This document shows positions 10,726-24,953 of a DNA stretch of 32,000 nt, in pieces; the first letter of the stretch is position 1, and every line of letters begins with the position of its first letter. The stretch is from positions 600,001 through 632,000 of the forward strand of contig NZ_CP036280.1 in NCBI RefSeq assembly GCF_007748075.1. The letters are read 5' to 3'. Source of the DNA: Mucisphaera calidilacus (GTDB lineage Bacteria > Planctomycetota > Phycisphaerae > Phycisphaerales > Phycisphaeraceae). A program made the translations under genes and the position numbers. The notes beneath the pieces were generated by a model that was not told the origin of the DNA, searched no databases, and worked only from the letters and a program-made list of their open reading frames with translations.

Positions 10726-10763
10726 GCACCCCCACGAGCCCCAAGCGCAAGCTTGGGGTGCCA

Positions 10764-11447: not shown

Positions 11448-11647
11448 GGGATGAACTGCTCAACGGCGAGCTCTTTTACACGCTCAAGGAAGCGAAGGTC
11501 CTCATCGAGCGGTGGCGACGTCATTACAACACGATCCGGCCTCATTCGTCGCTGGACTACCGGCCACCCGCACCCGAAACCATCACTGCAGAGCCGGGCT
11601 CCGCTCCGCTACGCCCGCCTCTGCAAACCAGCCTCGGTCTACCGTAG
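11429..11647 (+). pseudogene. IS3-family OrfB (DDE integrase) C-terminal fragment
   Basis: Translation is SFNGKLRDELLNGELFYTLKEAKVLIERWRRHYNTIRPHSSLDYRPPAPE...*. This is the conserved end of rve-domain IS3 transposases. Confidence 0.75.
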
Positions 11648-11817
11648 ACTGTGGGCCGAATCGTGGGGGAAGGTCAAGGAGGCTACATGGCGAAGCGTTT
11701 GAGTCAGATGAGACGACTCGGTGATTGGTGGCCGCTCCTCTGCGAGGCACCCAAAGCCACTGCACACCTCATCGTTCGCGTGTCCATATTTGCCATGACT
11801 ATCGCGGAGACTTGGTG

Positions 11818-12624
11818 ATGGCGGACTCTGGCGAACGCTTCTCCCGCCGCCTCGGCGTCCGCCCCCGTGGTGATGGGCCGCTGATTCACCACGACGCGCC
11901 GGAGTCCCTACTGGTGGGAACCATATCGCTGCTGCACGACCAGTTGGACAAGTCGCCATCATGGATCCGCGGCATGATCTGTGGGGTACGGCGCGTTCGT
12001 CCAGATCCGAGCAACTGGTCGCAGTACCCCAACATCTGGGGCGAGGCGCAGGACCTGGTTTACAGTGCCGAGTGGTTCGAGTTCTACGACTTCGTGGAAG
12101 CGTGCGCGGACTCTCTTGAACAGAGCGAAGAACTCGACCACTTTGAGTCAGCGATGAATCAACTCTTTGAGGAAGAGCACATCGGCTGGCGTCTCGTCGA
12201 CGGGGTCTTGGAGATTCAGGGTGACAAACTCCTTGAGGATCTGATCGAGGAGTCGCACGAGGAGCTGGAGGCAACGAGTTTCAACGTTGCGTCCCAGGAG
12301 TTGCGGGAGGCCCGGACCGATCTCTCGCGACGACCGGACCCCGATCTCTCGGGCGCCGTCCACCACGCGATGGCCGCTTTGGAGGCTGTCGCGAGACAGG
12401 TCACCGGCGAGCCCAAGAAGACGCTCGGCGACATCATCAAGCGGAATCCAGGGTTGCTCCCGCCCCCTGTCGATGAAGCCGCTACAAAGCTCTGGGGATT
12501 CGCCTCCGAGCAAGGACGACACGGCAGCGAAGGTCGCACGCTCAAATGGGCGGAGACGATGCTCGTCGTCGGAACGGCGGCGGCGTTGTGCTCCTACCTA
12601 ATCGCAAAGCAAGAGGAGATGTGA
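11818..12624 (+). CDS. AbiJ-like protein: AbiJ-NTD4-type N-terminus + HEPN-like C-terminal module (cassette gene A)
   Basis: GGAGA lies about 8 nt upstream of the ATG at 11818. The N-terminus ERFSRRLGVRP...ESLLVGT resembles the FS.R.G.KP start of the AbiJ_NTD4 family. The C-terminus AMAALEAVARQVTG..KKTLGDII...ATKLWGFASEQGRHGSEG..KWAETMLVVGTAAALCSYLI follows the '..AvE....tG...tLg....LyGf.S...G.RH' pattern I associate with the HEPN-like end of these proteins. Assignment is from memory, not an HMM. Confidence 0.6.
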   Translation: MADSGERFSRRLGVRPRGDGPLIHHDAPESLLVGTISLLHDQLDKSPSWIRGMICGVRRVRPDPSNWSQYPNIWGEAQDLVYSAEWFEFYDFVEACADSLEQSEELDHFESAMNQLFEEEHIGWRLVDGVLEIQGDKLLEDLIEESHEELEATSFNVASQELREARTDLSRRPDPDLSGAVHHAMAALEAVARQVTGEPKKTLGDIIKRNPGLLPPPVDEAATKLWGFASEQGRHGSEGRTLKWAETMLVVGTAAALCSYLIAKQEEM

Positions 12625-13511
12625 TGGCTCTTAAGCGACGCTGGATCGAGGTGCATCGGCTCACCATCTCCGGTCTTGAAGACGGGACCGCATACGGTTC
12701 GTTCTTGCGCGACACGCGAAACAAGATCGAGCAGCTTGAGAACACGGTACGAGACCAGGGCGGTAAGTCGCACGCGTTGTATGAAGCCAAGGTCATCAAG
12801 AGCCGGCTTCGTATGCGGTTTCTGAGCTACACCACCGGATACCGCCCCGATATCCTGAATACTGACGGCTACGCGATCGAGCCCAATCCCCTCGCTGACT
12901 CACAGACCGGCGTGGAGTGGACGCATGTTCTTGGTGCTCGCGTGAATGGCCGCTACTTGCTCTTATGCGAGAAGGTGCAGTCGGGCATCTGGCCGTCCAG
13001 CATCGAGCACTACCTCCAGTGGATGATCGACAAAGTGCATGGCCAGGAGTGGGTGGGCGATAAGGAGGAGGACGACGAGAACATCACCGTCAGCCTTGAG
13101 CCGGAAGCCGGGGCCGCCTTTGTGACGCGGATCGATGACCTGACACGCGTTCGGCTCGCGACCGTCCGCACCGTCCGACCGAACCCAGGCTGGATAGACC
13201 TTGAGAACGAGCTCGCCAGCGAGGCTGACGACTCCAAGGCTCAGAAGGCTGATGTCACGATGACCGCTCGCCGCGAGGCGTCGCTCTCGAAGACCAAAGG
13301 CATTGTCGGAGCGATCAAAAGGATGTTTGCCCGCAAGGAGCTGGACTACGCCGCGATCGAAGGCGAGCGGGAAGACGGGCAGAAGGACCACTTCACGACA
13401 AAGAAGCTCGTCGAACGGAGACGGCTCTCTCTGAAACTCGATGAGGGCGGTCAAGTCGATCATAGCGACGCATGGACCAGGCTGGGCGAGATGATGGACC
13501 AACAGGACTGA
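12624..13511 (+). CDS. Hypothetical 295-aa soluble protein, no family recognised (cassette gene B)
   Basis: ATG overlaps the stop of gene A (TGATG). A strong SD, AAGAGGAG, lies at 12611-12618. It has an acidic central stretch (GDKEEDDEN) and a charged C-terminal third. No TM segments. Confidence 0.7.
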   Translation: MALKRRWIEVHRLTISGLEDGTAYGSFLRDTRNKIEQLENTVRDQGGKSHALYEAKVIKSRLRMRFLSYTTGYRPDILNTDGYAIEPNPLADSQTGVEWTHVLGARVNGRYLLLCEKVQSGIWPSSIEHYLQWMIDKVHGQEWVGDKEEDDENITVSLEPEAGAAFVTRIDDLTRVRLATVRTVRPNPGWIDLENELASEADDSKAQKADVTMTARREASLSKTKGIVGAIKRMFARKELDYAAIEGEREDGQKDHFTTKKLVERRRLSLKLDEGGQVDHSDAWTRLGEMMDQQD

Positions 13512-13512
13512 C

Positions 13513-14079
13513 ATGTACCACGAGATTGGAGAATTCCTGTGGCACATGGGACGCCGCCAGAAGCTCTGGAAGGACGGCGAGCTGTGGACTGCGCTCATTC
13601 TTGGCGGGCTGGCAGGTTGGTTGTTCTACTGTGACCCAGCCGCCGTGGATCTTGTCCGCGAGCGATTCGGTGAACTACTGACTGTAGCGAGCATCGTCTT
13701 CGGCTTCGTGCTGACCACGCTGTTCTTTTACATCCAGGCGGCTGGCGAGTGGTCTCGGGATCCACGAGTTGGCCGCGTCGCAGAGAAACTCGTGGACTGG
13801 CACGTTTGGACGGTAATGTGCCTTCTGGCACTTGTCGGACTGATCATCGTGCTCTGGATCGCTAAGGGATTCTTCACCGGCGGCCGCCTTCGCTCCGCAA
13901 TCTCCCACGCGACCCTCGTGTTTCTCGCGGCCTATTGCAGCTTCCAGATCATCAACCACGTTCTCACCGTCCGCTGGGTGTTCCGGAAGCGTTCCGTACT
14001 GAAGGACGGCCCAGCACCACATGATCAACGATCAGATACCTCCGAGGCAGGCATCGGAACCGACACGGAGGACAAGTGA
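13513..14079 (+). CDS. Integral membrane protein, about 4 predicted TM helices, short acidic tail (cassette gene C)
   Basis: Starts 1 nt after the gene B stop. Hydrophobic segments are LWTALILGGLAGWLFY, LLTVASIVFGFVLTTLFFYI, VWTVMCLLALVGLIIVLWIA and ATLVFLAAYCSFQIINHVL. Confidence 0.7.
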   Translation: MYHEIGEFLWHMGRRQKLWKDGELWTALILGGLAGWLFYCDPAAVDLVRERFGELLTVASIVFGFVLTTLFFYIQAAGEWSRDPRVGRVAEKLVDWHVWTVMCLLALVGLIIVLWIAKGFFTGGRLRSAISHATLVFLAAYCSFQIINHVLTVRWVFRKRSVLKDGPAPHDQRSDTSEAGIGTDTEDK

Positions 14080-14441
14080 GTCCAACACTTCCATCCATCG
14101 AGCACCGCGACGCTGTCTTCGTAAGCCACGCGAATCCCGAAGACAACGCTATTGCGACCTGGCTCACTCTACGACTAACGCGCGAGGGCTACCGCGTGTG
14201 GTGCGATGTCGTCAAGCTTCGCGGCGGCGACGACTTCTGGAAGAACATTGAAGCAGCTATACGGCTACGCACTCGCCGCTTCATCTTTGTGACCTCACGT
14301 GTGTCCAATCAGAAGCCGGGAACACTCAAGGAACTCGCTATCGCTGAGGGAGTGGCCCGTACTCTGGGTGAGAACCGCTTCATCATCCCCGTCAAGGTTG
14401 ATGATCTCCCGTATGGTGAGCACAACATCCAGATCAACTGA
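14076..14441 (+). CDS. TIR-domain protein (cassette gene D); 3' end interrupted by an IS3 fragment, so probably truncated
   Basis: GTG start overlaps the gene C stop (GTGA), and GGAGGA lies just upstream. VFVSHANPEDNAIATWLTLRLTREGYRVWCDVVKLRGGDDFWKNIEAAIR..RRFIFVTSRVSNQKPGTLKELAIA is a TIR_2-type fold pattern. A Glu (E86) sits at the expected catalytic position. The stop TGA (14439-14441) is the first three bases of the IS left inverted repeat. Confidence 0.75.
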   Translation: MSPTLPSIEHRDAVFVSHANPEDNAIATWLTLRLTREGYRVWCDVVKLRGGDDFWKNIEAAIRLRTRRFIFVTSRVSNQKPGTLKELAIAEGVARTLGENRFIIPVKVDDLPYGEHNIQIN

Positions 14442-14592
14442 CCTTCCCCCCTGAACCGAGTCCGGATGTTGTGGGAGACTTCCCGCGTTCTGGACGCCAT
14501 CAGGAAGGAAAGATCGATGAGCAGGAAGCGTCATTCGGCCGAGGAGATTATGAACAAGCTTCGAGAGGCGGAGGTGTTGATGAGCCAAGGTG
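14439..14592 (+). mobile_element. IS3-family left-end fragment (IRL + first ~25 codons of orfA), a diverged relative of the element at 11100
   Basis: TGACCTTCCCCCCTGAACCGAGTCCGGA... is identical for 28 nt to the IRL at 11100, then roughly 85-90% similar by eye. MSRKRHSAEEIMNKLREAEVLMSQG follows, and homology is lost near 14592. Confidence 0.8.
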
Positions 14593-14651
14593 ACCTGGTC
14601 CACAGCCGGGGCCGGTCCAGATTGTCGGGCACGGCCAGCTTTCATCGTGAA

Positions 14652-14830
14652 TCATGCTGCTTGCCTGTAGTCATGATTCAGAAGACCGCCGAGGATACGC
14701 TCGCGGCGAATCGAGCCCACCGAAGTCGGTGGTGGACGGCCTGTCAAGGCCTCGTAACCGCGATGGAACGTCCTGAAGGGTCCACGCTTGGAGTGACGGA
14801 ATAAAGAATCCTTGGCGCGATGCCCGCTTG
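14652..14830 (-). pseudogene. Possible C-terminal remnant of a different rve-type transposase
   Basis: The minus-strand translation ...GSIRRERILGGLLNHDYRQAA* resembles the '..I.RRERLGGLL..YYR.AA' C-terminal end common in integrase-core transposases. The upstream part is degenerate. Confidence 0.35.
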
Positions 14831-14924
14831 CCCTGCAGCAGGGGGGCGGAGCGGGTGAAACCCCGCCCTTCCCGACTCATACGGCCATGTTGAACATAAT
14901 CAGTAAATCTAATGGGTATCGCGT

Positions 14925-15734
14925 CTAACGTTCCAAGGCCGAATCGCGATGCGAATTGACCACGTCGCTTGTGTGGTCGAGTAGTTCAAGGCCACCCGGT
15001 AATCCATGGCCAGGAACCACGATCTTTGTTTGCGGATACTTAGTCTTTAGTCGTTGCATTGAACTAGACCAAGCTAGGAGATCGGCGTCACCAATGTAAC
15101 CCGGTGTCTTCCGATCCATCTCGTAAACCGCACACCCACCGAAGAGCACACCCGAATCCGGTACATAGACCACTAAGTTGTCTACGCTGTGGGCTGGTCC
15201 CGGATAGAAAATTTCCATCGGCCCAAATCTGACCGCATCGCCCGGCTCTGCCAGGCCATCTATTGATTGCCGAGGGATTTGGTTACCCTCCGCTTTTGCC
15301 AGACGTTTCGTTAGAGGGGTGCCGTAGGTGGCCACCCCTGCCGCATCGAGCACGTCCATGCCCTCGACGCAGTCGTCATGGAAGTGCATGGCTATAGCTG
15401 AACGCACCGGCAAGCCAATTTCCGTTTTAAGGGCCGTAAGCAGCGCTTCGGTGTTCTTATCGCCCCAGGCCGTGTCGACCAGGATCAATTCGTTACCGTC
15501 GCGAACGACCAGACCATTCGCCGGATACATCACGCCGCCTACCTCACGGACGGCGACATGGACCCAGACACCATTGCGTATCTCATGCAACCGTGCTTCA
15601 CCGGGGGGCGTCTCGGCCAACCCTGGATGGTTCTGCGCTATTTCAGCCACCGTCAGCGATTGATTGGCGTCGGACGGTGGCGGTGCCGCAACGCAACCCG
15701 ATAAGAAGAGCAAACATAAAGCGAAATATTTCAT
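14925..15734 (-). CDS. Subclass B1 metallo-beta-lactamase, VIM-like, with lipoprotein signal peptide
   Basis: 269 aa from the ATG at 15734. Lipobox MKYFALCLLFLSGC. Zinc ligands are all present: HFHDD (H116/H118/D120), GPAHSVDN (H196), GGCAV (C221), PGHGLPGG (H263). Long collinear matches to VIM as I recall it: NGLVVRDG.EL.L.DTAWG.KNT, IGLPV, DVL.AAGVATY, GDAVRFGP.E.FYPG.AHS.DNLVVYVP, PGHGLPGGL.LL.HT..VV. GC is lower than in flanking genes. Confidence 0.85.
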   Translation of the reverse strand: MKYFALCLLFLSGCVAAPPPSDANQSLTVAEIAQNHPGLAETPPGEARLHEIRNGVWVHVAVREVGGVMYPANGLVVRDGNELILVDTAWGDKNTEALLTALKTEIGLPVRSAIAMHFHDDCVEGMDVLDAAGVATYGTPLTKRLAKAEGNQIPRQSIDGLAEPGDAVRFGPMEIFYPGPAHSVDNLVVYVPDSGVLFGGCAVYEMDRKTPGYIGDADLLAWSSSMQRLKTKYPQTKIVVPGHGLPGGLELLDHTSDVVNSHRDSALER

Positions 15735-16120
15735 ACAACCTAGATTGACCATAACCATCAACGTGGTCAAGCGGGTCTCTCTGCATGAACCTCTGTGCCT
15801 GAGGGTGGAGTACGCGTGCCCGATTGTCCATGAGGCCGACGATCTCGTCTTGGGCCAGCCCCTGGTGACCGAAGGCACAGAGAGCCACGGGCGATGAGGC
15901 GTAGGCAGAGCGGAACAAGTCGCTGCGCGGCGCCTTCGGCGTCGAACCGCGCGTGCGTCCGGCTTCGCCTGCCGCTGCGTGTTCTCATCCCGCTGGTCAT
16001 GTTTCGGGCTCCTCATCATCACCCGCCGAAACCCCATCCCAAAACCGATACTTTCTTTCACCCCCACCCCCTGATTCCGGGCGTCGCGCGCACAAGGACG
16101 GTATTCGTGCGCACATCGTG

Positions 16121-16235
16121 ACCAAAAACAGGCCCTTTTTGGACCAAAACGCTCCAAAACGGACCAAAACGCTCCAAAACGGACGAAAACGAACCCAAAA
16201 CGCTCGAAAACGACCCGAAACGAACCCGAAAAAGT
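16121..16235. repeat. Helically phased A-tract array (about 10 units of ~10 bp), including a perfect 20-bp tandem duplication
   Basis: From 16141 the units are ggaccaaaac gctccaaaac ggaccaaaac gctccaaaac ggacgaaaac gaacccaaaac gctcgaaaac gacccgaaac gaacccgaaaaag. It is non-coding, about 400-500 bp upstream of the MBL start and just downstream of the amidohydrolase stop. Confidence 0.8.
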
Positions 16236-16277: not shown

Positions 16278-17306
16278 TCAACGCACCGCCGTCTCGTCCC
16301 CGAAGAACCCCCGCGGCGCATCCTGGTACACCTGCCTCAGCAGCTCATCATCAAACCCCGCACCCCGCAACAACGCCGTCGAATCCTCCGGCAGACTCGG
16401 GTCCACCATCGACAGATCCGGGTCCACGATCGGGCTGGGTCCGTCATAATTAGTTTCCAGTAAAGTCTTTAACGACCAGTACCGGCTCGCGTACAGGTCG
16501 TAGTCGATGTTCGCGTCCGTCGTCACGATGTCGCTGCCGAACAGTACTCGCCCCGGATTCCGACGGCAGAAATCTCGGAACGCGTCCGGCCGCTTGCTCA
16601 GCTCACGCACCATCCACTTCGTCGCCGACGTATCCACCACGTAATTCGGGTACGTGTCTATAAGTACTTGTAAATACTCAAGATCCTCAGGCGACCCGCC
16701 CATGTGGGCCCCCAGCCACGGCACATCCCCATACCGGTCCATCACCCGCCGCAGACGGTCGAAGTGCTCCCGCTTCGTGCCATAACGACTGCTATCCGAA
16801 TACTTTGTAGCAAACCACGTGTCCGGGTCCCCGACGTGGCTCATGAACTTCATCCCCAGCGACTTCGCCAGGTCCATCGCCTCAAACCGGATCGGCGAAT
16901 CGATCCAGAAGTGCTCCGCCAGGTCCAGACCCCGCGGCGCCGCCCAGAACTTGCAGATCATGCACCCCCGCTCCGCGAACGCCTCGATGCGTTTAAGCCA
17001 ATGTGAAGTAAAGGTTTCCGGATTATCGCGCTCCTCGTAATTCGGCACCGCGATGAAGGCGATCCGCTTGCCCCACCGCTCCGCCAACGCGTCCACCTGC
17101 TCCATCCGGTTGGTCATCGACCACGTCTTGGTGATGCCGTAGTCGTCGGCCGCATGGAAATAAACCTCTGCCGAATCAAGGGTTCCGATGTGCGTGTGCA
17201 CGTCGTAGATCGGCCCCGCGTACCGGAACGTCGCCGCCTGGGCCGCGTAATCCAGCCCCAGCATGTTCGCCGGGTTCCGCTTCACGTCGGTGGGTGTCTG
17301 GCTCAT
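16278..17306 (-). CDS. Metal-dependent amidohydrolase-fold (TIM barrel) hydrolase
   Basis: 342-aa ORF. It has the HxH motif near the N-terminus (IYDVHTHIG), plus later H and D residues (FMSHVGDP, GAHMGG, LFGSDI) typical of the amidohydrolase_2-like family. Confidence 0.7.
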   Translation of the reverse strand: MSQTPTDVKRNPANMLGLDYAAQAATFRYAGPIYDVHTHIGTLDSAEVYFHAADDYGITKTWSMTNRMEQVDALAERWGKRIAFIAVPNYEERDNPETFTSHWLKRIEAFAERGCMICKFWAAPRGLDLAEHFWIDSPIRFEAMDLAKSLGMKFMSHVGDPDTWFATKYSDSSRYGTKREHFDRLRRVMDRYGDVPWLGAHMGGSPEDLEYLQVLIDTYPNYVVDTSATKWMVRELSKRPDAFRDFCRRNPGRVLFGSDIVTTDANIDYDLYASRYWSLKTLLETNYDGPSPIVDPDLSMVDPSLPEDSTALLRGAGFDDELLRQVYQDAPRGFFGDETAVR

Positions 17307-17342: not shown

Positions 17343-18173
17343 ATGCGTAACACAAAAGCCATACAGCTCATCGCCTGCGACGTCGACGGAACCCTCATCG
17401 ACGCCAGCGGTAAGATCCCTGAAAACAACCGTTTAGCCATCGCCGAGGCCGCCCGCAGGGGGGTGCGTTTCGTCCTCGCCTCGGCCCGCCCGCCGCGTAT
17501 GGCCCGCCCGATCTACGACGCCCTCGGTCTCGACACCTATCAGGTCAACTACAACGGCGCGGTCATTCAGCGGCCGGCCGACGACGACTACGCCGTCCAC
17601 CTCCCGATCGAGCCGCGGCTCGCGCTGCGGGTGATCGAGACGGCCCGGGCCGCTGATCCGGAACTTGCTGTCAGTCTTGAGATTAAAGACAGATGGCTGA
17701 CCGACGGCCTGCTCGACGGGCTGGAGACCGCCACGTCCCTCAACCTCACGCCCGACTACCTCGGCCCGCTCGAGCCGGTGCTGGTCGAGCCGGTGACCAA
17801 GATCCTGCTGCTGACCCCGCCCGCGCGGATGCCGGCCCTGCGCTCGGCGCTGGAGGCAGCGCTTGAGCCCGAGTTCGGCGGGCACGTCCGCCTGCAGGTC
17901 AGCGACGAGCACCTGGTGCAGGTCGTGAACGTCGAGGCGGACAAGGAGCACGCGGCGGCGTGGGTCGCGCAAGCCTATGGCATATCAATGGATGCGATGC
18001 TGGCGATCGGCGACGCGCCCAACGACGCGGGGATGCTGCGGGCGGCGGGGGTCGGCGTCGCGGTCGGCGGCGCGTGGGACGAGGCCCGGGCCGCTGCGGA
18101 CTGCGTGTCGCCTTGCGGCGCAGCGGAGGGCGCGGTGGCGTGGGCGATCGAGCGGTTCGTGCTGGATCGATAA
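17343..18173 (+). CDS. HAD-superfamily hydrolase, Cof-type (HAD-IIB)
   Basis: Motif I is ACDVDGTLID and motif IV is GDAPNDAGML. The cap region length fits Cof/YbiV-like phosphatases. The ATG at 17343 is preferred over the upstream extension that overlaps the divergent gene. Confidence 0.8.
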   Translation: MRNTKAIQLIACDVDGTLIDASGKIPENNRLAIAEAARRGVRFVLASARPPRMARPIYDALGLDTYQVNYNGAVIQRPADDDYAVHLPIEPRLALRVIETARAADPELAVSLEIKDRWLTDGLLDGLETATSLNLTPDYLGPLEPVLVEPVTKILLLTPPARMPALRSALEAALEPEFGGHVRLQVSDEHLVQVVNVEADKEHAAAWVAQAYGISMDAMLAIGDAPNDAGMLRAAGVGVAVGGAWDEARAAADCVSPCGAAEGAVAWAIERFVLDR

Positions 18174-18240: not shown

Positions 18241-18717
18241 TCAGTTAATCGCGATCTGCCTGGGTAGGACCTGCTCACTCTTGGGCAGTCGGACCGTCAG
18301 CACGCCATCGGTGAGCGAGGCGTCGATCCGGCCGGCGTCGAGGCCGCGCGGCAGGCGGAACTGACGTCGGACCTGCTCGATGCGGCGTTCACGCATGTGA
18401 ACGGTCGCGACGGGCTTCTCGGCCTGGGCCTGCTCGGTCTGGCCCTCGCCCTCGCCTTCGGCGGGCGTGATCTGGTCGGAGCCGGTGCTGCGGTCGGCCT
18501 CGATGGTCAGGACGTTGTCCTCGAGGTTGATGCTGATCTGGTCCCGGGTGAAGCCGGGCAGCTCGGCCTCGATGACGTAGGCGTCGTCGACCTCGGAGAC
18601 GTCGACGGGGTACCAGCCCTGGGTGCTGGAGGGTGTGCAGGCGACGTTGCCGGCTAAGGCGCGGTCGAACTCTCGGAAGAGCTGATCGATCGGGTTGCGG
18701 GTGGTTCGGGTCAACAT
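18241..18717 (-). CDS. Small heat-shock protein, Hsp20/alpha-crystallin family
   Basis: 158 aa. The alpha-crystallin core is VDVSEVDDAYVIEAELPGFTRDQISINLEDNVLTI...F.RQFRLPRGLDAGRIDASLTDGVLTVRLPK. AGGAGG lies 8 nt upstream of the ATG. Confidence 0.9.
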   Translation of the reverse strand: MLTRTTRNPIDQLFREFDRALAGNVACTPSSTQGWYPVDVSEVDDAYVIEAELPGFTRDQISINLEDNVLTIEADRSTGSDQITPAEGEGEGQTEQAQAEKPVATVHMRERRIEQVRRQFRLPRGLDAGRIDASLTDGVLTVRLPKSEQVLPRQIAIN

Positions 18718-18812
18718 GGTTGGGCCTCCTAAAAGGTTGTGCTTGCTGCTTGAGTCCCGGCGGGGTCTGCCGCTCGGGGCCGCTGCCTTCGTGGCGGCGA
18801 CGCAAGGAGATA

Positions 18813-18828
18813 TGCACGGTGCGTGCCA
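18813..18828 (-). promoter_or_regulatory. Sigma-54 (-24/-12)-like promoter element upstream of hsp20
   Basis: The minus strand reads TGGCACG-CACC-GTGCA, against the consensus TGGCACG-N4-TTGCW. Only one core mismatch, correct GG/GC spacing, about 95 nt upstream of the hsp20 ATG. Confidence 0.35.
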
Positions 18829-18858
18829 GCCCCTGGAATACAGGTATAGATACGTAAG

Positions 18859-18874
18859 TGATTGATTTCAATCA
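18859..18874. promoter_or_regulatory. Palindrome TGATTGA-tt-TCAATCA inside an AT-rich tract between hsp20 and argC (candidate operator)
   Basis: Perfect 7-bp inverted repeat within an approximately 70-bp AT-rich stretch (18837-18906) in an otherwise high-GC region. It lies about 100 nt upstream of the argC start. Confidence 0.3.
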
Positions 18875-18969
18875 TATTAAGATAAATATAGAATCATTCT
18901 AAAAATGCCAACATGGCAGTATTCGGGTTGTGGACTGCGGATTGTGCTGTCGGATGCAACAATGGGGGT

Positions 18970-20016
18970 ATGACGACACGAGCCGCGATTTTGGGGCCGA
19001 CCGGCTACGCCGGGGCCGAGCTGATCCGCCTGCTGCTGGGGCATCCCGAGGCGGAGGTGACGTACCTCGCTTCGCACCGGGACGAGCTGCCCGACCTGCG
19101 TGTGGAGTACCCGCGTCTGGCGGCGGCGTTGGACCCGGCGGTGGCGGTAGCGCGGCCGGTGGATCCGGGGGCGATCGCGGCGGCGGCGGACGTGGCGTTC
19201 CTGGCGTTGCCGCACAAGGCGTCGATGTCGTATGCGCCGGCGCTGCTGGACGCGGGGCTGCGTGTGATTGACCTGTCGGCGGACTACCGGCTGTCGTCGG
19301 TGGAGCTGTATGAGTCGGTGTATGGCGTGGAGCACGTGGACGCGGATCGTGTGGCGGAGACGGTGTACGGGCTGCCCGAGTTTTTCCGTGAGCGGATCAC
19401 GGCGGACACGCGGCTGCTGGCTTCGCCGGGGTGTTATCCGACGGCGGCGCTGCTGGGGATCGTGCCGCTGATGCGTGGCGGGCTGGTGGATCCGGCGTCG
19501 CTGATCGTGAACGCGGCGTCGGGGACGACGGGCGCGGGGCGGAGCGCGAAGGTGGGGTTGTTGCACGCGGAGGCGAACGAGGGTTTTGCGGCGTACGGGA
19601 CGATCGGCGGTCATCGTCATCAGCCGGAGATCGGCGACGTGCTGGAGGTGCTGGGGTATCCGGGCGTGGACCCGTTGTTCGTGCCGCACCTGCTGCCTGT
19701 GGACCGGGGGATCCTGGCGACGATTTATGGCACGCCTCGGGCGGGGGTGCGTCTGGAGGATGTGGGGCGGGCGTTCGAGGTGGCTTACGGGGGTGAGCCG
19801 TTTGTGCACGTGGTGGATCATCTGCCGAGCGTGAAGCACGTGGCGGGGACGAATCACGTGCAGGTGTCGTTCCGGCTGGCGGAGACGGGCAGCGGATCGC
19901 GGCTGGTGGTGTTCGTGGCGGAGGACAACATCGTCAAGGGTTCGTCGGGTCAGGCGATTCAGGCGATGAACCTGATGTTTGGGCATGAAGAGGGGTGCGG
20001 GCTGATGGGGGTGTAG
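18970..20016 (+). CDS. argC: N-acetyl-gamma-glutamyl-phosphate reductase
   Basis: AILGPTGYAGAELIRLL (NAD-binding) and catalytic SPGCYPTAALL are present, 348 aa. The ATG at 18970 is preferred over the upstream extension. Confidence 0.9.
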   Translation: MTTRAAILGPTGYAGAELIRLLLGHPEAEVTYLASHRDELPDLRVEYPRLAAALDPAVAVARPVDPGAIAAAADVAFLALPHKASMSYAPALLDAGLRVIDLSADYRLSSVELYESVYGVEHVDADRVAETVYGLPEFFRERITADTRLLASPGCYPTAALLGIVPLMRGGLVDPASLIVNAASGTTGAGRSAKVGLLHAEANEGFAAYGTIGGHRHQPEIGDVLEVLGYPGVDPLFVPHLLPVDRGILATIYGTPRAGVRLEDVGRAFEVAYGGEPFVHVVDHLPSVKHVAGTNHVQVSFRLAETGSGSRLVVFVAEDNIVKGSSGQAIQAMNLMFGHEEGCGLMGV

Positions 20017-20158
20017 ATGGGGGCAGGTGGAGAGATCTGAGACTTTGGTGGTGCATCCTGGATTCTGCGAATTCGAGTCAGGGGTGCGGTGTGTATCGCG
20101 TCATAATATTATTTCTAGATCTTGTATTATCAATAAATCGGGCTAGCCGGAATGATTA

Positions 20159-20188
20159 GCAATGTAAGATTAGTGATAATTACATTGC
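20159..20188. promoter_or_regulatory. Perfect 9-bp inverted repeat GCAATGTAA-N12-TTACATTGC in the AT-rich leader of the orphan lipoprotein gene
   Basis: Seen directly. It lies about 70 nt upstream of the ATG at 20260. GATTAG is directly repeated at 20154 and 20168. Confidence 0.3.
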
Positions 20189-20259
20189 ATCTGTTATCAC
20201 AACATGATAGAAAAAGGAAATAGTCCACCCGATAAGACCTCGCATTTCAAGGGACATCT

Positions 20260-21012
20260 ATGCAACTGATCACAGCCGTTTTTGCACTCGCCTTGGTCAT
20301 GCTCGTCGGGTGCCAGGGGATTCATTTCGAGGATGAGGTGTTGTCGACAGCAGTCAACCCGAAGATGAAGAAACGTATTGTCTGGCCATATGATGATGCG
20401 TTGAAGCGTAATCTTGCGCAGCTGGCAGGGCATGTGATCGTAGGCGATCTTACATCAGGTTCGTTTGACCGCGGCAATCGTTACGTTGGAGAGGCGGGTG
20501 TCGAGGTCGTACCCATCGAGGCGGGTGAGATCTTTACTGCGAAGTGTGACAGCAGTGCGGCTGCTGAGGGTGTTTATCTGATGGTGACATCTTCTCTAGC
20601 TGCGAACGAAGTCGCGGAGGTTACGATCGCTGACATTAGCGAGGTGTTTATACCGTGGGACGATATACCTCGTGATGAGCTTGTCAAAGAGGGGGCGAGG
20701 GCGCGTGACGAAGGAGTTGGATGCTACTATGTACAGGCTGCAACGCTTACGTCGATCGTGATGGAACGATCGGTTGTGGTGGATTCCAACACGCAGGGGT
20801 TGGTGGGGGAGGCGTATGGGGCGAAGGGAAAGGTGCGTCACGCAAGCAAGAAATTCAGCCGTGATTATGTAGTCTCCTTGACGCTTCTTGACCTGTCGTT
20901 GATTCAGCCTGTGCCGCCCAACTCGATCCGGGGACCCTTAACCCTGCGTGAGAGTCGGGTTCAGCCAGATGGCCTGGTCGTTATCGAACAACTCTCGGGC
21001 TGGGAGGACTAG
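20260..21012 (+). CDS. Lipoprotein of unknown function
   Basis: Lipobox MQLITAVFALALVMLVGC, 250 aa. GC is visibly lower than in neighbouring genes. No family recognised. Confidence 0.6.
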   Translation: MQLITAVFALALVMLVGCQGIHFEDEVLSTAVNPKMKKRIVWPYDDALKRNLAQLAGHVIVGDLTSGSFDRGNRYVGEAGVEVVPIEAGEIFTAKCDSSAAAEGVYLMVTSSLAANEVAEVTIADISEVFIPWDDIPRDELVKEGARARDEGVGCYYVQAATLTSIVMERSVVVDSNTQGLVGEAYGAKGKVRHASKKFSRDYVVSLTLLDLSLIQPVPPNSIRGPLTLRESRVQPDGLVVIEQLSGWED

Positions 21013-21040: not shown

Positions 21041-21697
21041 TTATGCAGCGTTGGTGACGTTGTTCTGCGGGCAGGAACGTTTGAGGGGGCAGGTGGAGCA
21101 TCTGGGTTTGCGTGCGTCGCAGACGGCTCGGCCATGTGCGATGAGCAGGTGAGCGAGCATGGTCCAGTTTTTGGCGGGGAATCGTGCCATGAGGTCGCGT
21201 TCGATGCGGACGGGGTCTTTGAAGGTGGTGAATCCGAGTCGTTGCGCGAGTCGTCCGATGTGGGTGTCGACGACCATGCCGACGTTGATGCCGAAGGCGT
21301 TGCCGAGGACAACGTTGGCGGTTTTGCGTGCGACGCCCGGGAGGGTGAGGAGTTGTTCCATGGTCCGGGGGACTTCGCCTTGGAAGGTTTCGACGACCTC
21401 GATGGCAGCGCCGTGGATATTTTTGGCCTTGTTGCGGAAGAAGCCGCAGGTCTTGACGTAGGGCTCGATGCTGGCGGGGGTGGCGTCGGCGAAGGCCTGG
21501 GGTGTGGGGAAGGCCTTGAAGAGTTCGGGCGTCACTATGTTGACGCGTGCGTCGGTGCACTGAGCGGAGAGGATGGTGGCGACGACGAGCTGCCAGGGGT
21601 CGCGGTGGTGGAGGGCGCAGTCGGCGTCGGGGTAGAGCTCGAGCAGCTTCTTGTAGATGCGGGCGGCGCGTCGTTTGTCGGCGGTGGTGGGTTTCAT
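21041..21697 (-). CDS. nth: Endonuclease III (DNA glycosylase/AP lyase)
   Basis: HhH-GPD motif LLTLPGVARKTANVVL with the catalytic Lys, plus the C-terminal 4Fe-4S cluster C-x6-C-x2-C-x5-C (CDARKPRCSTCPLKRSC). Confidence 0.9.
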   Translation of the reverse strand: MKPTTADKRRAARIYKKLLELYPDADCALHHRDPWQLVVATILSAQCTDARVNIVTPELFKAFPTPQAFADATPASIEPYVKTCGFFRNKAKNIHGAAIEVVETFQGEVPRTMEQLLTLPGVARKTANVVLGNAFGINVGMVVDTHIGRLAQRLGFTTFKDPVRIERDLMARFPAKNWTMLAHLLIAHGRAVCDARKPRCSTCPLKRSCPQNNVTNAA

Positions 21698-22281
21698 GCG
21701 TCGTCGGCGGGTGCGGGCTGGGGTGCGGGTTGGGCTGCGGGTTTGGGGGCGTGGGCCCAGGGCGCGACGGCGAGGGCGGCGAGGACGAGGAGGGCTTCGG
21801 TGCCGACGGTTCGCTCGGCGGTTTTGTGGAGGGTGTGGAAGGCGTCGCGTGCGGCGGCACGGTCGATCTCGGGTTTGGCGGGGTCGTAGATGACGGCGTA
21901 GAGGTCGTTCATCTGGGGGACGACCTGTTGCTGTTCGTAGAGCAGGCAGCCGAGGGCGAGGATGAGGATGGCGAGTTGGGTGCGCGAGGTTTTGCCGCCC
22001 AGCCAGGGGATGATCAGGAGTGTGGCGATGGCGGCGGAGGCGCAGGCGTAGCGGATGATGGCGTGTTGGTCGAAGAGCTTGTTGGCGATGACGCCTGCGA
22101 GTCGTTGGGGGTCGTCGTTGCGGAGCAGGACGTGGTAGTGCTGGGGCGCGGTGATCATGGGCTGGTAGTCGCGCATGGTCCAGAAGATCTGGGGTGCGCC
22201 GAGGCCCATCATGAGGGTGGAGCCGGCCCAGAGTCCGAGGGCGATGATCTGGATGGCGAAGAGTGTTTTGAGGGTGTTCAT
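21694..22281 (-). CDS. Membrane protein (DUF4149/TMEM205-like?), translationally coupled between mutS and nth
   Basis: Hydrophobic segments are FAIQIIALGLWAGSTLMMGL, AIATLLIIPWL, LAILILALGCLLY and LLVLAALAVAPW. ATGA overlaps occur at both ends (22278-22281 and 21694-21697). Confidence 0.6.
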   Translation of the reverse strand: MNTLKTLFAIQIIALGLWAGSTLMMGLGAPQIFWTMRDYQPMITAPQHYHVLLRNDDPQRLAGVIANKLFDQHAIIRYACASAAIATLLIIPWLGGKTSRTQLAILILALGCLLYEQQQVVPQMNDLYAVIYDPAKPEIDRAAARDAFHTLHKTAERTVGTEALLVLAALAVAPWAHAPKPAAQPAPQPAPADDA

Positions 22282-24953
22282 GCCTGTCTGGCCTGTTCGG
22301 AGAGTTGTCGGAGTGTGTCGAAAGCCTGGAGGGGCGTCATGGTGTCCATGTTGAGGTTACGCAGGGCGTCGACGGCGGGGTGGTCGAGGACGCGTGAAAA
22401 GAGGGGCATCTCGGTTTCGGCGTGCGGGGTGGTGTCGGGTTTGGCGACGCTGGCGATGTCCTGGGCGGCGTGCTGGTCGGCGAGGGCGTTGAGGAGTTGG
22501 TTGGCTCGTTGGACGACCTGCGGGGGCATGCCGGCGAGTTTGGCGACGTGGATGCCGTAGGAGCGGTCGGTGGTTCCGGGCTCGATGCGGTGGAGGAAGA
22601 CGACCTGGTCGTTCCACTCGCGGACGCGGACGTGGAGGTTGAGGACGTTGTCGGGGAGCTGGTCGGCGAGGTCGGTGAGTTCGTGGTAGTGGGTGGCCAT
22701 GAGGACGCGTGGCGGTTCGGGACGTGTGGCGAAGTGTTCGGCGATGGCCCATGCGAGCGAGAGTCCGTCGAGGGTGGAGGTTCCGCGTCCGATCTCGTCG
22801 AGGATGATGAGTGATTGTCCGGTGGCGTGGTGGCACATGCGTGCGGTCTCGGCCATCTCGACCATGAAGGTGGACTGTCCGGTGTGGAGTTCGTCGGAGG
22901 CGCCGATGCGTGTGAAGATTCGGTCGGTGCGTCCGATGCGTGCGGCCTTGGCGGGGACGAAGGACCCGGCGTGTGCGAGGAGGGTGATGAGGGCGGCCTG
23001 TCGGATGAAGGTGGACTTGCCGGCCATGTTGGGTCCGGTGATGAGTGCGAGGGCGGGTTGCTGGCTGCCGCCGAGGGAGGTGTTGTTGGGGACGAAGTTA
23101 TCGCGGAGGATCTGGTCGAGGACGGGGTGTCGTCCGTCGGTGATGTCGAGGGTGGCGTCGTCGGTGAGTTGGGGCCGGACGTATCGGTGCCGGGTGGCGG
23201 TGCGTGTGAAGCAGAGGAGGGTGTCGAGTTCGGCGACGGCGTCGGCGAAGGCGCGGAGGGCGGGTGCGGCGGTGATGATTTCGGTGCAGAGCTGGTCGAA
23301 GAGTTGTTTCTCGCGTTCGACGGCGCGGGACTCGGCGTGGAGGACCTTGTTCTCGTATTCCTTGAGCTGCGGCGTGATGAATCGTTCGGCGTTCTTGAGG
23401 GTTTGTTTGCGTGTCCAGTCGTCGGGTGCTTTGTCGCGGTGGGCGGCGGTGAGTTCGATGTAGTAGCCGAAGACCTTGTTGAACCCGACCTTGAGGGAGG
23501 GGACGCCGATCTGCTCGACGAGCTGTTTCTGGTAGCGGGCGAGCCATGCCTGGGAGTCGCGTTGGAGGGATCTTGCCTCGTCGAGTTCGGGGTCGATGGT
23601 GTCGCGGATGAGTCCGCCCTCGCGGAGGTGGGGTGGCGGTTCTTCGACGCATCGTTCGGTGATGATGGCGGCGGCGTGGTTGAGGGCGTCGGCGTGCCGG
23701 GTGATCTGGTCGGCGAGGGGCTCAAGGGCGTGCTGGTCGGTGAGGTTGTCGTTGATGGCTTGAGCCTGTGCGGTGCTGTTGCCGAGGGCGACGACGTCGC
23801 GGGGAGAGGCTCGGCCGAGGGTGAGTCGTGCGAGGATGCGTTCGACGTCCTGGACGTCGGCGAGGTTTTCGCGGAGGGCGTCGACGAGGCGCGGGGTTTG
23901 TGTGAGGGCTTCGACGGCGGCGTGCCGTGTTTCGATGGTGTTCTTGTCGCGGAGGGGGTAGCAGAGCCATCGCCGGAGTGTGCGTCGGCCGAGTGCGGTG
24001 TCGGGTCGTTCGAAGACGGAGAGGAGCGAGCCGTCTTCGGATTCGGATCGTGTGGTGCGGACGATCTCGAGGGACCGGAGCGCGGCCTCGTCGAGGACGA
24101 GGTGGTTTTCGCGTGGGAAGCGTTTGGGTGGCTGGAGGTGTGCGAGGGAGGCGGGCGTGTCGGCGCCCATCTGCTGGGTTTCGTGGAGGTAGTGGAGGAT
24201 GGCGCCGGCGGGGATGATCTCGGGGTCGTCGTCGCGGAGTCCGAAGCCGGTGAGGGCGTGGACGCTGTAGTGCTTGCGGATGAGTTCGAGGGTTTCGGTT
24301 CGGTGGAACTGCCAGCCGGGTCGTCCGGTGGCGGTGAGGTTGAGTCGTTGGAGGAGGTTTTGGGCGCGGGGCGGTGTTTCGTTGGTGGCGGTCTGGCTGT
24401 AGATGAGTTCGGAGGGGTCGAGTCGTGAGAGTTCGTCGGCGACCTCGTTTTCGTGGAGTTCGGAGACCCAGAAGGCACCGGTGGAGAGCTCGGCCCATGC
24501 GATGGCGACGCGTTGGTTGTCGAGGAAGGCGACGGCGGCGAGGGGGTTGTCTTTGCTGTCGTCGAGGAGGGAGGATTCGGTGAGGGTGCCGGGTGTGACG
24601 ACGCGGGTGACGTCGCGTTTGACGACGCCTTTGGCTTGGGCGGGGTCTTCGACCTGGTCGCAGACGGCGACGCGGTACCCGGCCTGGATCATGCGTCGGA
24701 GGTAGCCGTCGACGGCGTGGTAGGGCACGCCGGCCATGTCGATGCCCTTGGTGCGTTGGGTGAGGGTGACGCCCAGGACCTTGTGTGCGAGGCGAGCGTC
24801 GTCGTAGAAGAGCTCGTAGAAGTCGCCCATGCGGAAGAAGAGGACGCAGTCGGGGTGTCGTTGTTTGAAGGTGTGGAACTGGCGCATGGCGGGGGTCTGG
24901 TGCTGCGCGCCATCGGGGATGTGGGTTGCGGGTGTTGCGGTCTTCTCCGGCAT
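22278..24953 (-). CDS. mutS: DNA mismatch repair protein MutS
   Basis: 891 aa. The N-terminal mismatch-binding region is TPAMRQFHTFKQRHPDCVLFFRMGDFYELFYDDA. Walker A is GPNMAGKSTFIRQ. ILDEIGRGTSTLDG is also present. Confidence 0.95.
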   Translation of the reverse strand: MPEKTATPATHIPDGAQHQTPAMRQFHTFKQRHPDCVLFFRMGDFYELFYDDARLAHKVLGVTLTQRTKGIDMAGVPYHAVDGYLRRMIQAGYRVAVCDQVEDPAQAKGVVKRDVTRVVTPGTLTESSLLDDSKDNPLAAVAFLDNQRVAIAWAELSTGAFWVSELHENEVADELSRLDPSELIYSQTATNETPPRAQNLLQRLNLTATGRPGWQFHRTETLELIRKHYSVHALTGFGLRDDDPEIIPAGAILHYLHETQQMGADTPASLAHLQPPKRFPRENHLVLDEAALRSLEIVRTTRSESEDGSLLSVFERPDTALGRRTLRRWLCYPLRDKNTIETRHAAVEALTQTPRLVDALRENLADVQDVERILARLTLGRASPRDVVALGNSTAQAQAINDNLTDQHALEPLADQITRHADALNHAAAIITERCVEEPPPHLREGGLIRDTIDPELDEARSLQRDSQAWLARYQKQLVEQIGVPSLKVGFNKVFGYYIELTAAHRDKAPDDWTRKQTLKNAERFITPQLKEYENKVLHAESRAVEREKQLFDQLCTEIITAAPALRAFADAVAELDTLLCFTRTATRHRYVRPQLTDDATLDITDGRHPVLDQILRDNFVPNNTSLGGSQQPALALITGPNMAGKSTFIRQAALITLLAHAGSFVPAKAARIGRTDRIFTRIGASDELHTGQSTFMVEMAETARMCHHATGQSLIILDEIGRGTSTLDGLSLAWAIAEHFATRPEPPRVLMATHYHELTDLADQLPDNVLNLHVRVREWNDQVVFLHRIEPGTTDRSYGIHVAKLAGMPPQVVQRANQLLNALADQHAAQDIASVAKPDTTPHAETEMPLFSRVLDHPAVDALRNLNMDTMTPLQAFDTLRQLSEQARQA

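What the first reader, a model, noticed from the sequence alone, without database searches (positions are those of the whole stretch)
17343..18173. Replication-type strand-composition switch (origin polarity) located inside an intact HAD hydrolase gene
Left of about 17.5 kb, + strand genes (sulfatase, LarA-like, hydrolase::Tpx, pseudopilin, PEP-CTERM) use almost only C/A-ending codons: ccc ttc ctc tac, Arg=cga, Gly=gga, Glu=gaa. In the same region, - strand genes (rhaI, rhaB, cysK, amidohydrolase) use G/T-ending codons: ctg gcg acg cgt ggt. Right of about 17.9 kb the rule inverts. There, + strand genes (argC, priA, kinase) are G/T-ending and - strand genes (hsp20, nth, mutS, yggS, dedA) are C/A-ending. 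The bias therefore follows the DNA strand rather than transcription direction, and it is unusually strong. Going from a C-rich to a G-rich + strand is the polarity expected at a replication origin under the usual rule that the leading strand has G>C and T>A. However, the flip occurs gradually within one ORF. The first ~70 codons of the HAD gene are NNC-rich and the last ~90 are NNG-rich. The window contains no dnaA or dnaN, and I found no DnaA-box cluster. Possible explanations are a nearby atypical oriC (AT-rich tracts at 18837-18906 and 20090-20260), a large inversion endpoint created by recombination between inverted HAD paralogs, or an unconventional skew regime.
Basis: partly seen in the sequence, partly recalled or inferred. 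Interest (0 to 1): 0.7.

Follow-up and report, generated by a model that had tools for sequence, protein, structure and literature searches.

The report
Replication-origin strand switch crossing a gene
This is most likely the point where the two replication forks of the Mucisphaera calidilacus chromosome start in opposite directions; the strand bias here is so strong that the boundary can be read codon by codon, and it falls inside an ordinary, intact hydrolase gene.

Summary
The window is from Mucisphaera calidilacus (Phycisphaerae). The + strand is C/A-rich on the left (GC skew -0.25) and G/T-rich on the right (+0.32). Third-codon-position skew reaches +/-0.7 whichever strand a gene is on. 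The sign changes at 17.6-17.9 kb, inside the intact Cof-type HAD gene.

It is not a local inversion endpoint. Three other lineages keep the amidohydrolase-HAD-hsp20-argC-nth block, and each has the same-polarity switch inside it. The switch sits at a different place in each: -157, +431, about +1280 and +2672 nt from the HAD start.

On a relative's 3.25-Mb contig, a second switch of opposite polarity lies almost antipodal (arcs 1.58 and 1.67 Mb). That switch is diffuse over about 20 kb. One lineage carries an inversion spanning the switch.

I conclude this is the origin-side replichore boundary. No DnaA-box cluster, dnaA, dnaN or dif-like site was found.

The kind of feature is ordinary. The strength of the skew and the movement of the boundary through coding sequence are moderately interesting.

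The parts
1..10500 (.). Left replichore flank. The + strand is C/A-rich: GC skew -0.25, and GC3 skew -0.40 to -0.72 for genes on either strand.
7217..8638 (+). Hydrolase_4::Redoxin (Tpx) fusion gene. The junction between its two domains is one endpoint of the origin-spanning inversion that distinguishes the window from L002/L050.
   Evidence: Pfam. In L002/L050, AhpC/Redoxin alone lies on the left, and Hydrolase_4(-)-PALP(+) lies to the right of mutS.
10501..16100 (.). Inserted island with zero skew and lower GC. It carries an AbiJ_NTD4/PDC-S32-like gene, a TIR-only gene and a metallo-beta-lactamase-fold gene. It interrupts the left flank and is absent between the pseudopilin and amidohydrolase genes in L001.
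16134..16235 (+). Tandem array of about 10 units of 10-11 bp (CSAAAACGNN, phased A-tracts), just 3' of the amidohydrolase stop codon.
   Evidence: The same array occurs with about 6 copies in L052, 1 copy in L002/L050 and none in L001.
16278..17306 (-). Amidohydro_2 gene, of left type but attenuated (GC3 skew -0.30). In the relative L001, the switch lies in codon ~32 of its orthologue.
17343..18173 (+). Intact Cof-type HAD-IIB hydrolase gene that straddles the switch. Codons 1-88 are C-ending (18 G, 55 C). The rest is weakly G-ending (95 G, 71 C).
17600..17934 (.). Interval in which the + strand composition changes sign. This is the inferred boundary between the leftward- and rightward-replicated DNA.
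   Evidence: Cumulative minimum at 17845. Change points at 17846 (17772-17925) and 17774. Codon windows.
18241..18717 (-). hsp20 gene, already right-type but attenuated (+0.37). In L002/L050 the switch lies in codon ~47 of its orthologue.
18718..18912 (.). Divergent spacer between hsp20 and argC. It holds two conserved palindromes, GCACG-N3-CGTGC and TGCCA-N3-TGGCA, and a window-specific AT-rich insertion at 18837-18906.
18913..20016 (+). argC gene, right-type but attenuated (+0.52). In L052 the switch lies at its 3' end.
20017..21012 (+). Lineage-specific cargo at the argC|nth junction: an AT-rich 243-bp spacer plus a 250-aa putative lipoprotein gene with GC3 of 0.60. Each relative has different cargo, or none, at this junction.
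21041..32000 (.). Right replichore flank at full strength. The + strand is G/T-rich: GC skew +0.32, GC3 skew +0.44 to +0.72. The mutS|priA junction at 24953/24989 is the other inversion endpoint.

Best explanation
The switch is the boundary between the two replichores on the origin side of the M. calidilacus chromosome.

**How the bias arises (inferred from established knowledge).** To its right, the + strand is the leading-strand sequence. To its left, the - strand is. This clade has an exceptionally strong replication-linked mutational asymmetry. Its signature is G and T excess on one strand, as expected from C-to-T change on the strand exposed as lagging-strand template. That asymmetry drives synonymous sites, and partly amino-acid composition, to opposite equilibria on the two sides.

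**Role of HAD.** HAD is a bystander. It is an intact housekeeping-type gene that happens to lie across the boundary in this species.

**Movement of the boundary.** The boundary is confined to the conserved amidohydrolase-HAD-hsp20-argC block in all relatives, but it sits at a different nucleotide position in each. It is flanked on one side by 1-3 kb of intermediate skew. This can be read in two ways:
- The boundary has moved by up to about 2.8 kb since these lineages split, leaving DNA that has not yet reached the new equilibrium. I prefer this reading.
- Initiation and first priming are spread over a zone of about 3 kb.

**Shown:** the switch, its independence of gene strand, its conservation, its different position in each lineage, the antipodal diffuse counterpart, and the inversion that spans it.

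**Inferred:** that it marks the origin rather than the terminus, the mutational mechanism, and the history of movement.

**Not identified:** the oriC element itself.
For: **1. Strand-linked skew of very large size.**. For scale, phylum averages of replication-associated GC skew in 185 chromosomes were 0.001-0.096, and G/T excess on the leading strand was nearly universal (PMC2031905).

**2. Same synteny and same polarity in the relatives.** Single change points on third positions, relative to the HAD start:
- L001 (Mucisphaera sp., HAD 70% identical): -157, interval -160 to -151.
- Window: +431.
- L002 and L050 (HAD 60% identical): +1280 and +1274.
- L052 (HAD 70% identical): +2672.

HAD GC3 skew is +0.84 in L001, -0.05 in the window, -0.50 in L002 and -0.45 in L052. 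Codons for identical residues are the same in only 24-44% of cases. Synonymous sites are therefore largely re-equilibrated, so the switch reflects present replication direction in each lineage.

**3. An antipodal counterpart.** L051 is on the same 3,251,998-bp contig as L001. It carries the opposite-polarity switch at about 725.7 kb, against 2,305.3 kb for the main switch. The arcs are 1.58 and 1.67 Mb. The L051 switch is diffuse: GC3 skew runs from +0.46 to -0.70 over 20 kb. A sharp switch paired with a diffuse one fits a fixed origin and a variable fork-meeting zone.

**4. An inversion that spans the switch.** L002 and L050 differ from the window by an inversion that spans the switch, with endpoints hydrolase|Tpx and mutS|priA. 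Every gene still matches the skew of its side. This is the classic origin- or terminus-centred inversion pattern.

**5. tRNA orientation.** tRNA-Cys (window 5111-5184, - strand) and the tRNA in L051 are both co-oriented with replication under the standard polarity.
Against: - No DnaA-box cluster, repeated 9-mer cluster or conserved AT-rich unwinding element was found at or near the switch in any lineage.
- No dnaA or dnaN lies within 15 kb.
- In every lineage the switch falls inside a coding sequence or at a 10-bp gene junction, not in a spacer that could hold a classical oriC.
- A boundary that moves with no change in gene order is not what a fixed oriC predicts.
- The polarity call rests on the general rule that the leading strand is G-rich. 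I found no rRNA or ribosomal-protein operon in this clade that could confirm it.
- All 14 genes in L051 point away from the diffuse switch, so they would be head-on with replication if it is the terminus.
- The whole replicon of M. calidilacus itself could not be examined.
Confidence: 0.8

Rival explanations
1. The classical oriC is the hsp20-argC spacer, with the AT-rich tract at 18837-18906 as the unwinding element. The sign change in HAD is only one edge of a neutral zone of a few kb around it. In that zone both strands are copied continuously, because each leading strand is primed some distance beyond the unwinding site.
For: - It is the only sizeable spacer conserved in all lineages, and the most AT-rich spot of the block.
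- In the window, the zone of attenuated skew (about 16.3-21 kb) is roughly centred on it.
Against: - In L001, HAD (+0.84) and hsp20 (+0.53), which lie left of that spacer, are fully right-type. The switch there is 1.95 kb away and sharp to within about 10 nt.
- In L052, argC, which lies right of the spacer, is left-type (-0.21).
- The AT-rich tract is not conserved, and the conserved blocks are short palindromes typical of operators.
- There are no DnaA boxes.
Confidence: 0.15
2. The switch is the endpoint of a large inversion created by recombination between inverted HAD paralogues. HAD would then be a chimera, and the G-rich DNA to its right would be an inverted segment of the same replichore.
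For: The HAD gene is compositionally two-part. The window alone cannot exclude this.
Against: - The same polarity switch lies in the same gene block in four lineages whose synonymous sites are largely randomised.
- The crossing point lies in a different gene in each lineage.
- Window HAD shows similar identity to the orthologues in both parts.
- The relative's contig has its other switch antipodal.
- An old inversion would have been erased by so strong a bias, and a recent one would not be shared.
Confidence: 0.03
3. Skew polarity is inverted in this clade, with the leading strand C/A-rich. The compact switch would then be the replication terminus, for example a fork trap, and the diffuse antipodal switch would be the origin region.
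For: - The boundary moves between lineages.
- Islands and toxin-antitoxin cargo sit beside it, which is typical of terminus regions.
- No oriC features were found.
- All 14 genes in L051 would be co-oriented with replication if that locus were the origin.
- About two thirds of the genes in the sampled strongly skewed loci have a C-rich coding strand. This is my count, from a small, clustered sample.
Against: - G/T excess on the leading strand is nearly universal and has a mechanistic basis (PMC2031905).
- A fixed origin cannot easily give a 20-kb gradient, whereas free fork collision can.
- No dif-like site lies near the compact switch.
- Two tRNA genes are oriented as the standard polarity predicts.
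Confidence: 0.05

Closest known systems
GC-skew minimum at a bacterial chromosomal origin (Lobry-type strand asymmetry, as used by Ori-Finder and DoriC)
   Same: - The sign change runs from C-rich to G-rich, with a parallel T over A excess.
- It is independent of gene orientation.
- It is paired with an opposite switch about half a chromosome away in a relative.
   Different: - The amplitude is several times the highest phylum averages reported (PMC2031905).
- No DnaA-box cluster, dnaA or dnaN accompanies it.
- The crossing lies inside coding sequence, and its position differs between close relatives.
Origins unlinked from dnaA, such as E. coli oriC between mnmG (gidA) and mioC about 40 kb from dnaA, or Caulobacter Cori next to hemE (from my own knowledge)
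   Same: The origin-side switch is surrounded by ordinary housekeeping genes, with dnaA absent from the neighbourhood.
   Different: Those origins are discrete intergenic elements with recognisable DnaA boxes and an AT-rich unwinding element. Nothing comparable was found here.
Genomes whose codon usage is dominated by replication strand, such as Borrelia burgdorferi, Chlamydia muridarum (PMC2089121) and Lawsonia intracellularis (PMC2671203)
   Same: Genes fall into two codon-usage classes according to the replicating strand they lie on.
   Different: - This is a 64% G+C planctomycete.
- The effect is large enough for orthologues in sister lineages to have almost opposite third-base usage (HAD GC3 skew +0.84 against -0.50).
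- One gene is visibly two-part.
Origin- or terminus-centred symmetric inversions (X-alignments between related genomes; from my own knowledge)
   Same: The window and L002/L050 differ by an inversion spanning the switch, and it preserves every gene's leading or lagging status.
   Different: One endpoint falls between the two domains of a gene that is fused in the window (hydrolase::Tpx) and split in the relatives.

Membership tests
Origin-side replichore boundary (skew minimum) | GC skew on a fixed strand changes sign from negative to positive, and keto (G+T) excess switches with it. | tested here: met
Origin-side replichore boundary (skew minimum) | The bias follows the DNA strand, not the direction of transcription. 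| tested here: met
   Per-gene GC3 skew has the same sign for + and - strand genes on each side. The same holds in L001, L002 and L050.
Origin-side replichore boundary (skew minimum) | It is a stable feature of the replicon, conserved at the syntenic place in relatives, rather than a recent rearrangement. | tested here: met
   Four lineages share the block and the polarity.
Origin-side replichore boundary (skew minimum) | It is one of only two global switches, with the other roughly antipodal. | tested here: inconclusive
   Met in the relative: 2,305 kb against about 726 kb on a 3,252-kb contig. Only two places on that contig were sampled. The window's own replicon could not be retrieved.
Classical DnaA-dependent oriC | A cluster of DnaA boxes (TTATCCACA-like 9-mers). 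| tested here: not met
   The DnaA-box consensus of this phylum is not known to me, so a divergent box could have been missed.
Classical DnaA-dependent oriC | An AT-rich unwinding element in an intergenic region at the switch. | tested here: not met
   - The spacers at the switch are 36 and 67 bp long.
- The AT-rich tracts are 1.0-2.4 kb away, on the G-rich side.
- Those tracts are not conserved.
Classical DnaA-dependent oriC | Initiation demonstrated at this site by marker frequency, DnaA binding or autonomous replication. | not testable with these tools
   This needs cultures or read-depth data.
Inversion breakpoint between inverted paralogues | Lineage-specific gene order across the junction, and a reciprocal chimeric copy elsewhere. 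| tested here: not met
   Gene order across the switch is identical in all lineages. There is no chimeric identity pattern. The reciprocal copy could not be searched for in the whole genome.
Replication terminus / dif region | A 28-bp XerCD dif-like site at a G-rich to C-rich switch. | tested here: not met
   The polarity is the opposite one. No dif-like match was found in the window, L001, L002, L009, L010 or L051.

The most novel reading that the evidence does not exclude
The chromosome of the Mucisphaera clade starts replication without a fixed, box-bearing intergenic oriC. Initiation, or the first leading-strand priming, happens within a zone of about 3 kb made almost entirely of coding sequence (amidohydrolase-HAD-hsp20-argC). 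The preferred start point drifts through genes over evolutionary time. The extreme strand bias records that drift at near-nucleotide resolution.
Probability: 0.15. Interest if true: 0.75.

Novelty: new member of a known kind. Interest (0 to 1): 0.45.

Why it matters
Skew switches at origins are routine, so the existence of this one is not news. Three things make it useful.

- **Size of the bias.** Overall GC skew is 0.25-0.45 and third-position skew reaches 0.84. The replichore boundary can therefore be placed from sequence alone to within tens of nucleotides, about 10 nt in one relative. This is far finer than in model bacteria.
- **Behaviour of the boundary.** At that resolution the boundary lies in coding DNA, has no recognisable DnaA boxes nearby, and sits in four different places within a conserved 2.8-kb gene block in four related lineages.
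- **What could be tested.** This clade could serve as a natural system for three questions: where leading-strand synthesis really begins relative to an origin, how fast skew re-equilibrates after a strand change, and how far mutational bias can reshape a protein. HAD valine content is 13.4% on the G/T-rich strand and 7.4% on the C/A-rich strand.

It also gives a candidate origin region for a phylum in which I know of no experimentally mapped origin.

Tried and rejected
- **DnaA boxes.** TTATCCACA with at most 1 mismatch, and TTNTCCACA with at most 1 mismatch, gave no cluster. ATCCAC-type cores simply follow the C/A-rich strand.
- **De novo repeats.** A search for repeated 9-mers (at most 1 mismatch, within 500 bp) in the core block of four lineages found no shared motif. 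Only the A-tract array turned up.
- **Shared intergenic k-mers.** Only GCGTGCCA(G), from an operator-like palindrome, is shared.
- **dif.** E. coli and B. subtilis dif, and the conserved core, were searched with generous mismatches. Nothing was found.
- **Overlapping elements.** Synonymous-site conservation across three genomes showed no stretch that stands out and could reveal an embedded element.
- **Chimeric-paralogue test on HAD.** Negative.
- **The source contig.** Exact-protein look-ups for the window's own proteins failed three times. The genome scan did not return M. calidilacus. The position of the window in CP036280.1, and its distance to dnaA, therefore remain unknown. Sequential GenBank accessions (QDU70641 and QDU70651) and the one published locus tag (Pan265_03220) were not enough to place it.
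- **Independent polarity test.** Rfam found only tRNAs.
- **More relatives.** The metagenome scan gave no close relative, with HAD identity at most 48%.
- **Literature.** I found no paper on skew or origins in Phycisphaerae or in this species. One apparent hit was an unrelated plasmid name.

Full report
**Source and gene content**

The HAD protein encoded at 17343-18173 is 100% identical to QDU70651.1 of Mucisphaera calidilacus. This is strain Pan265, class Phycisphaerae, phylum Planctomycetota. Its genome is 3,486,541 bp with 63.9% G+C (PMC8882080).

- **Left of the switch:**
  - a xylose-isomerase-like TIM-barrel gene (-)
  - an FGGY kinase (-)
  - LarA (+)
  - tRNA-Cys (-)
  - a PALP/cysK-type enzyme (-)
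  - a Hydrolase_4::Redoxin fusion (+)
  - a DUF1559 pseudopilin (+)
  - an Amidohydro_2 gene (-)
- **Right of the switch:**
  - hsp20 (-)
  - argC (+)
  - a 250-aa gene of unknown function (+)
  - nth (-)
  - DUF4149 (-)
  - mutS (-)
  - priA (+)
  - a YggS-like gene (-)
  - a DedA/VTT gene (-)
  - a CCA/poly(A) polymerase (-)
  - an amidase (+)

No dnaA or dnaN is present.

The + strand has GC skew -0.248 over 1-10,500 and +0.323 over 21,001-32,000. AT skew has the opposite sign on each side.

Third-codon-position GC skew, expressed on the + strand, is -0.40 to -0.72 for left genes and +0.44 to +0.72 for right genes. This is true whichever strand encodes the gene. The bias therefore belongs to the DNA strand, and the G-rich strand is also T-rich.

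The cumulative minimum is at 17845. Likelihood change points fall at 17846 (17772-17925) on all G/C bases, and at 17774 on third positions.

HAD is intact. It is a full-length Hydrolase_3 match with all catalytic motifs aligned to homologues. It is compositionally two-part: 18 G and 55 C at the third position in codons 1-88, against 95 G and 71 C afterwards (p=3e-6).

Two refinements are needed.
- The 3' part of HAD is only mildly G-rich. Skew then climbs stepwise to full strength only at nth: hsp20 +0.37, argC +0.52.
- The left flank contains a 5.6-kb island (10.5-16.1 kb) with zero skew and lower G+C.

For scale, phylum-average replication-associated GC skews in 185 chromosomes were 0.001-0.096 (PMC2031905). 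This clade is several-fold above that.

**Relatives show a conserved feature, not a rearrangement scar**

Three further lineages carry the HAD orthologue in the same block, amidohydrolase(-)/HAD(+)/hsp20(-)/argC(+)/.../nth(-)/DUF4149(-)/mutS(-).
- **L001:** a Mucisphaera sp. MAG on a 3.25-Mb contig, HAD 70% identical.
- **L002 and its close relative L050:** HAD 60% identical.
- **L052:** HAD 70% identical.

All show the same C-rich to G-rich switch inside this block. More distant Phycisphaerae have weak skew and no synteny.

Codons for residues identical in three genomes are the same in only 24-44% of cases. Synonymous sites have therefore been largely rewritten since these lineages split. A skew pattern that persists under such strong pressure must reflect how each genome replicates today.

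**The crossing point differs between lineages**

Single change points on third positions, measured from the HAD start codon:

| Lineage | Position (nt) | Location |
|---|---|---|
| L001 | -157 (interval -160 to -151) | codon ~32 of the amidohydrolase gene |
| Window | +431 (broad interval) | inside HAD |
| L002 / L050 | +1280 / +1274 | codon ~47 of hsp20 |
| L052 | +2672 | 3' end of argC, 10 bp from the convergent nth |

As a result, HAD GC3 skew is +0.84 in L001, -0.05 in the window, -0.50 in L002 and -0.45 in L052.

Protein composition follows the same trend. Valine is 13.4% in L001 against 7.4% in L002, and glycine 8.8% against 5.2%.

Each lineage has 1-3 kb of intermediate skew on one side of its crossing.
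- Right side in the window, L002 and L050.
- Left side in L001.

Equilibrium left-type composition always holds up to the amidohydrolase gene. Equilibrium right-type composition always holds from nth onward.

**Global context from the relative**

A paralogue of the pseudopilin gave a second locus, L051, on the same 3,251,998-bp contig as L001. It contains the opposite-polarity switch.

GC3 skew on the + strand runs +0.46, +0.27, +0.25, +0.04, +0.15, then -0.28, -0.24, -0.43 and on to -0.70 across 20 kb.

In record coordinates, that sign change is at about 725.7 kb and the main switch is at 2,305.3 kb. The arcs are 1.58 and 1.67 Mb. The skew signs of the sampled stretches fit a circle with exactly two switches.

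One switch is compact: sharp to about 10 nt in L001. The other is a gradient of about 20 kb. A fixed start site and a variable fork-meeting zone explain this pair naturally. The reverse assignment would need a diffuse origin.

**Inversion across the switch**

Compared with the window and L001, L002 and L050 have dedA-yggS-priA on the left in inverted orientation, and Hydrolase_4-PALP-tRNA-Cys on the right of mutS. The core block is unchanged.

This is a single inversion spanning the switch, with endpoints at hydrolase|Tpx and mutS|priA. Every relocated gene has the skew of its new side. Such inversions are characteristic of the origin-terminus axis (my own knowledge).

**Polarity**

The G- and T-rich strand is the one expected to suffer C-to-T change while exposed as lagging-strand template. 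That strand is the leading-strand sequence, a direction reported as nearly universal (PMC2031905).

Under this rule the window's switch is the origin side. Two tRNA genes, in the window and in L051, are co-oriented with replication under this assignment.

I could not obtain an rRNA or ribosomal-protein operon from this clade to test the rule independently. All 14 genes of L051 point away from the diffuse switch, which is mildly awkward for a terminus. I therefore keep a small probability for an inverted regime.

**What was not found**

- There is no DnaA-box cluster, no shared repeated motif, no dif-like site, and no stretch of unusual synonymous conservation.
  - Both lie inside the G-rich side.
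  - In L001, HAD and hsp20, to the left of the corresponding spacer, are fully right-type. In L052, argC, to its right, is left-type.
  - The 18837-18906 tract is a window-specific insertion in a spacer whose conserved parts are two short palindromes.
  - The 20.0-21.0 kb segment is lineage-specific cargo at a junction that carries Phd, Phd-PIN, DinB_2 or nothing in the relatives.

The oriC element proper is therefore unidentified.

**Interpretation and verdict**

The finding is the origin-side replichore boundary of a genome with an extreme replication-linked mutational bias. The gene it crosses is incidental.

The movement of the boundary within a conserved gene block has two possible explanations.
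- **Historical movement with incomplete re-equilibration.** I favour this because skew rises stepwise away from the crossing.
- **A spread of initiation or first-priming positions over about 3 kb.**

The data do not decide between them.

The kind of feature is well known, and the public genome could be analysed by any skew tool, so novelty is modest. The amplitude, the codon-level resolution, the drift through coding sequence and the absence of recognisable origin signals are moderately interesting, and they are open to experiment.

Noticed in passing
window 10501-16100: Zero-skew, lower-GC island inserted between the pseudopilin and amidohydrolase genes. In L001 those two genes are 50 bp apart.

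Contents:
- an AbiJ_NTD4 / PADLOC PDC-S32-like gene (11725-12624)
- three ORFs without family matches
- a 121-aa TIR-only protein resembling the TIR domain of short-pAgo-associated Aga_TIR proteins (14076-14441)
- a metallo-beta-lactamase-fold gene (14925-16274, -)

It is probably a recently acquired defence island. Its lack of skew suggests it arrived recently.
   Followed up: partly
window 16134-16235; L052 about 2575-2640: Tandem array of 10-11-bp units (CSAAAACGNN), which are phased A-tracts and so probably intrinsically bent DNA. It sits immediately 3' of the amidohydrolase stop codon. There are about 10 copies in the window (7 exact, none elsewhere in a cluster), about 6 in L052, 1 in L002/L050 and none in L001. 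Its function is unknown, and it is not conserved enough to be an essential origin element.
   Followed up: partly
window 7217-8638 and 24953/24989: The Hydrolase_4::Redoxin fusion gene corresponds to two separate genes in L002/L050, lying on opposite sides of the switch. One endpoint of the origin-spanning inversion therefore coincides with a gene fusion or fission event.
   Followed up: partly
window 18718-18912; L001 11678-11909; L002 11416-11640: Two palindromes are conserved in the divergent hsp20-argC spacer: GCACG-N3-CGTGC next to hsp20, and TGCCA-N3-TGGCA(GT) next to argC. They are likely operator sites for heat-shock and arginine regulators, respectively.
   Followed up: no
window 20017-21012 and the argC|nth junction of L001, L002, L050, L052: The argC|nth junction is a hot spot for small cargo:
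- window: a 250-aa putative lipoprotein with an AT-rich upstream region
- L001: a PhdYeFM antitoxin
- L002: Phd plus PIN
- L050: DinB_2
- L052: nothing (10-bp junction)
   Followed up: partly
L009 and L010 (Planctomycetota MAGs P01_C01_bin.78 and P01_D01_bin.113), about 5.7-13.8 kb: In a more distant, also strongly skewed lineage, the amidohydrolase(-)/HAD(+) pair is kept. It is followed by tRNA-Leu and a 6-8-kb segment of reversed skew carrying hslV, mraW, a LysM protein, ftsI and hscB. A G-rich to C-rich switch lies right after HAD, and the skew returns to G-rich at about 13.8 kb. This looks like a local inversion or transposed segment.
   Followed up: partly
L051 (Mucisphaera sp. contig, record 711,647-732,423): The presumed terminus region is a 20-kb skew gradient. 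It is made of sugar-utilisation genes (GH20, GH94, GH16, ROK, SSF transporter) that all point away from the sign change. A tRNA gene and a tyrosine recombinase gene lie at one end.
   Followed up: partly
HAD orthologues: window 17343-18173, L001 10001-10789, L002 10001-10816: Amino-acid composition of one orthologous enzyme shifts with the replicating strand it lies on. It has more Val and Gly on the G/T-rich strand, and more His, Gln, Pro and Thr on the C/A-rich strand. This is a clean example of mutational bias reaching the protein level.
   Followed up: partly
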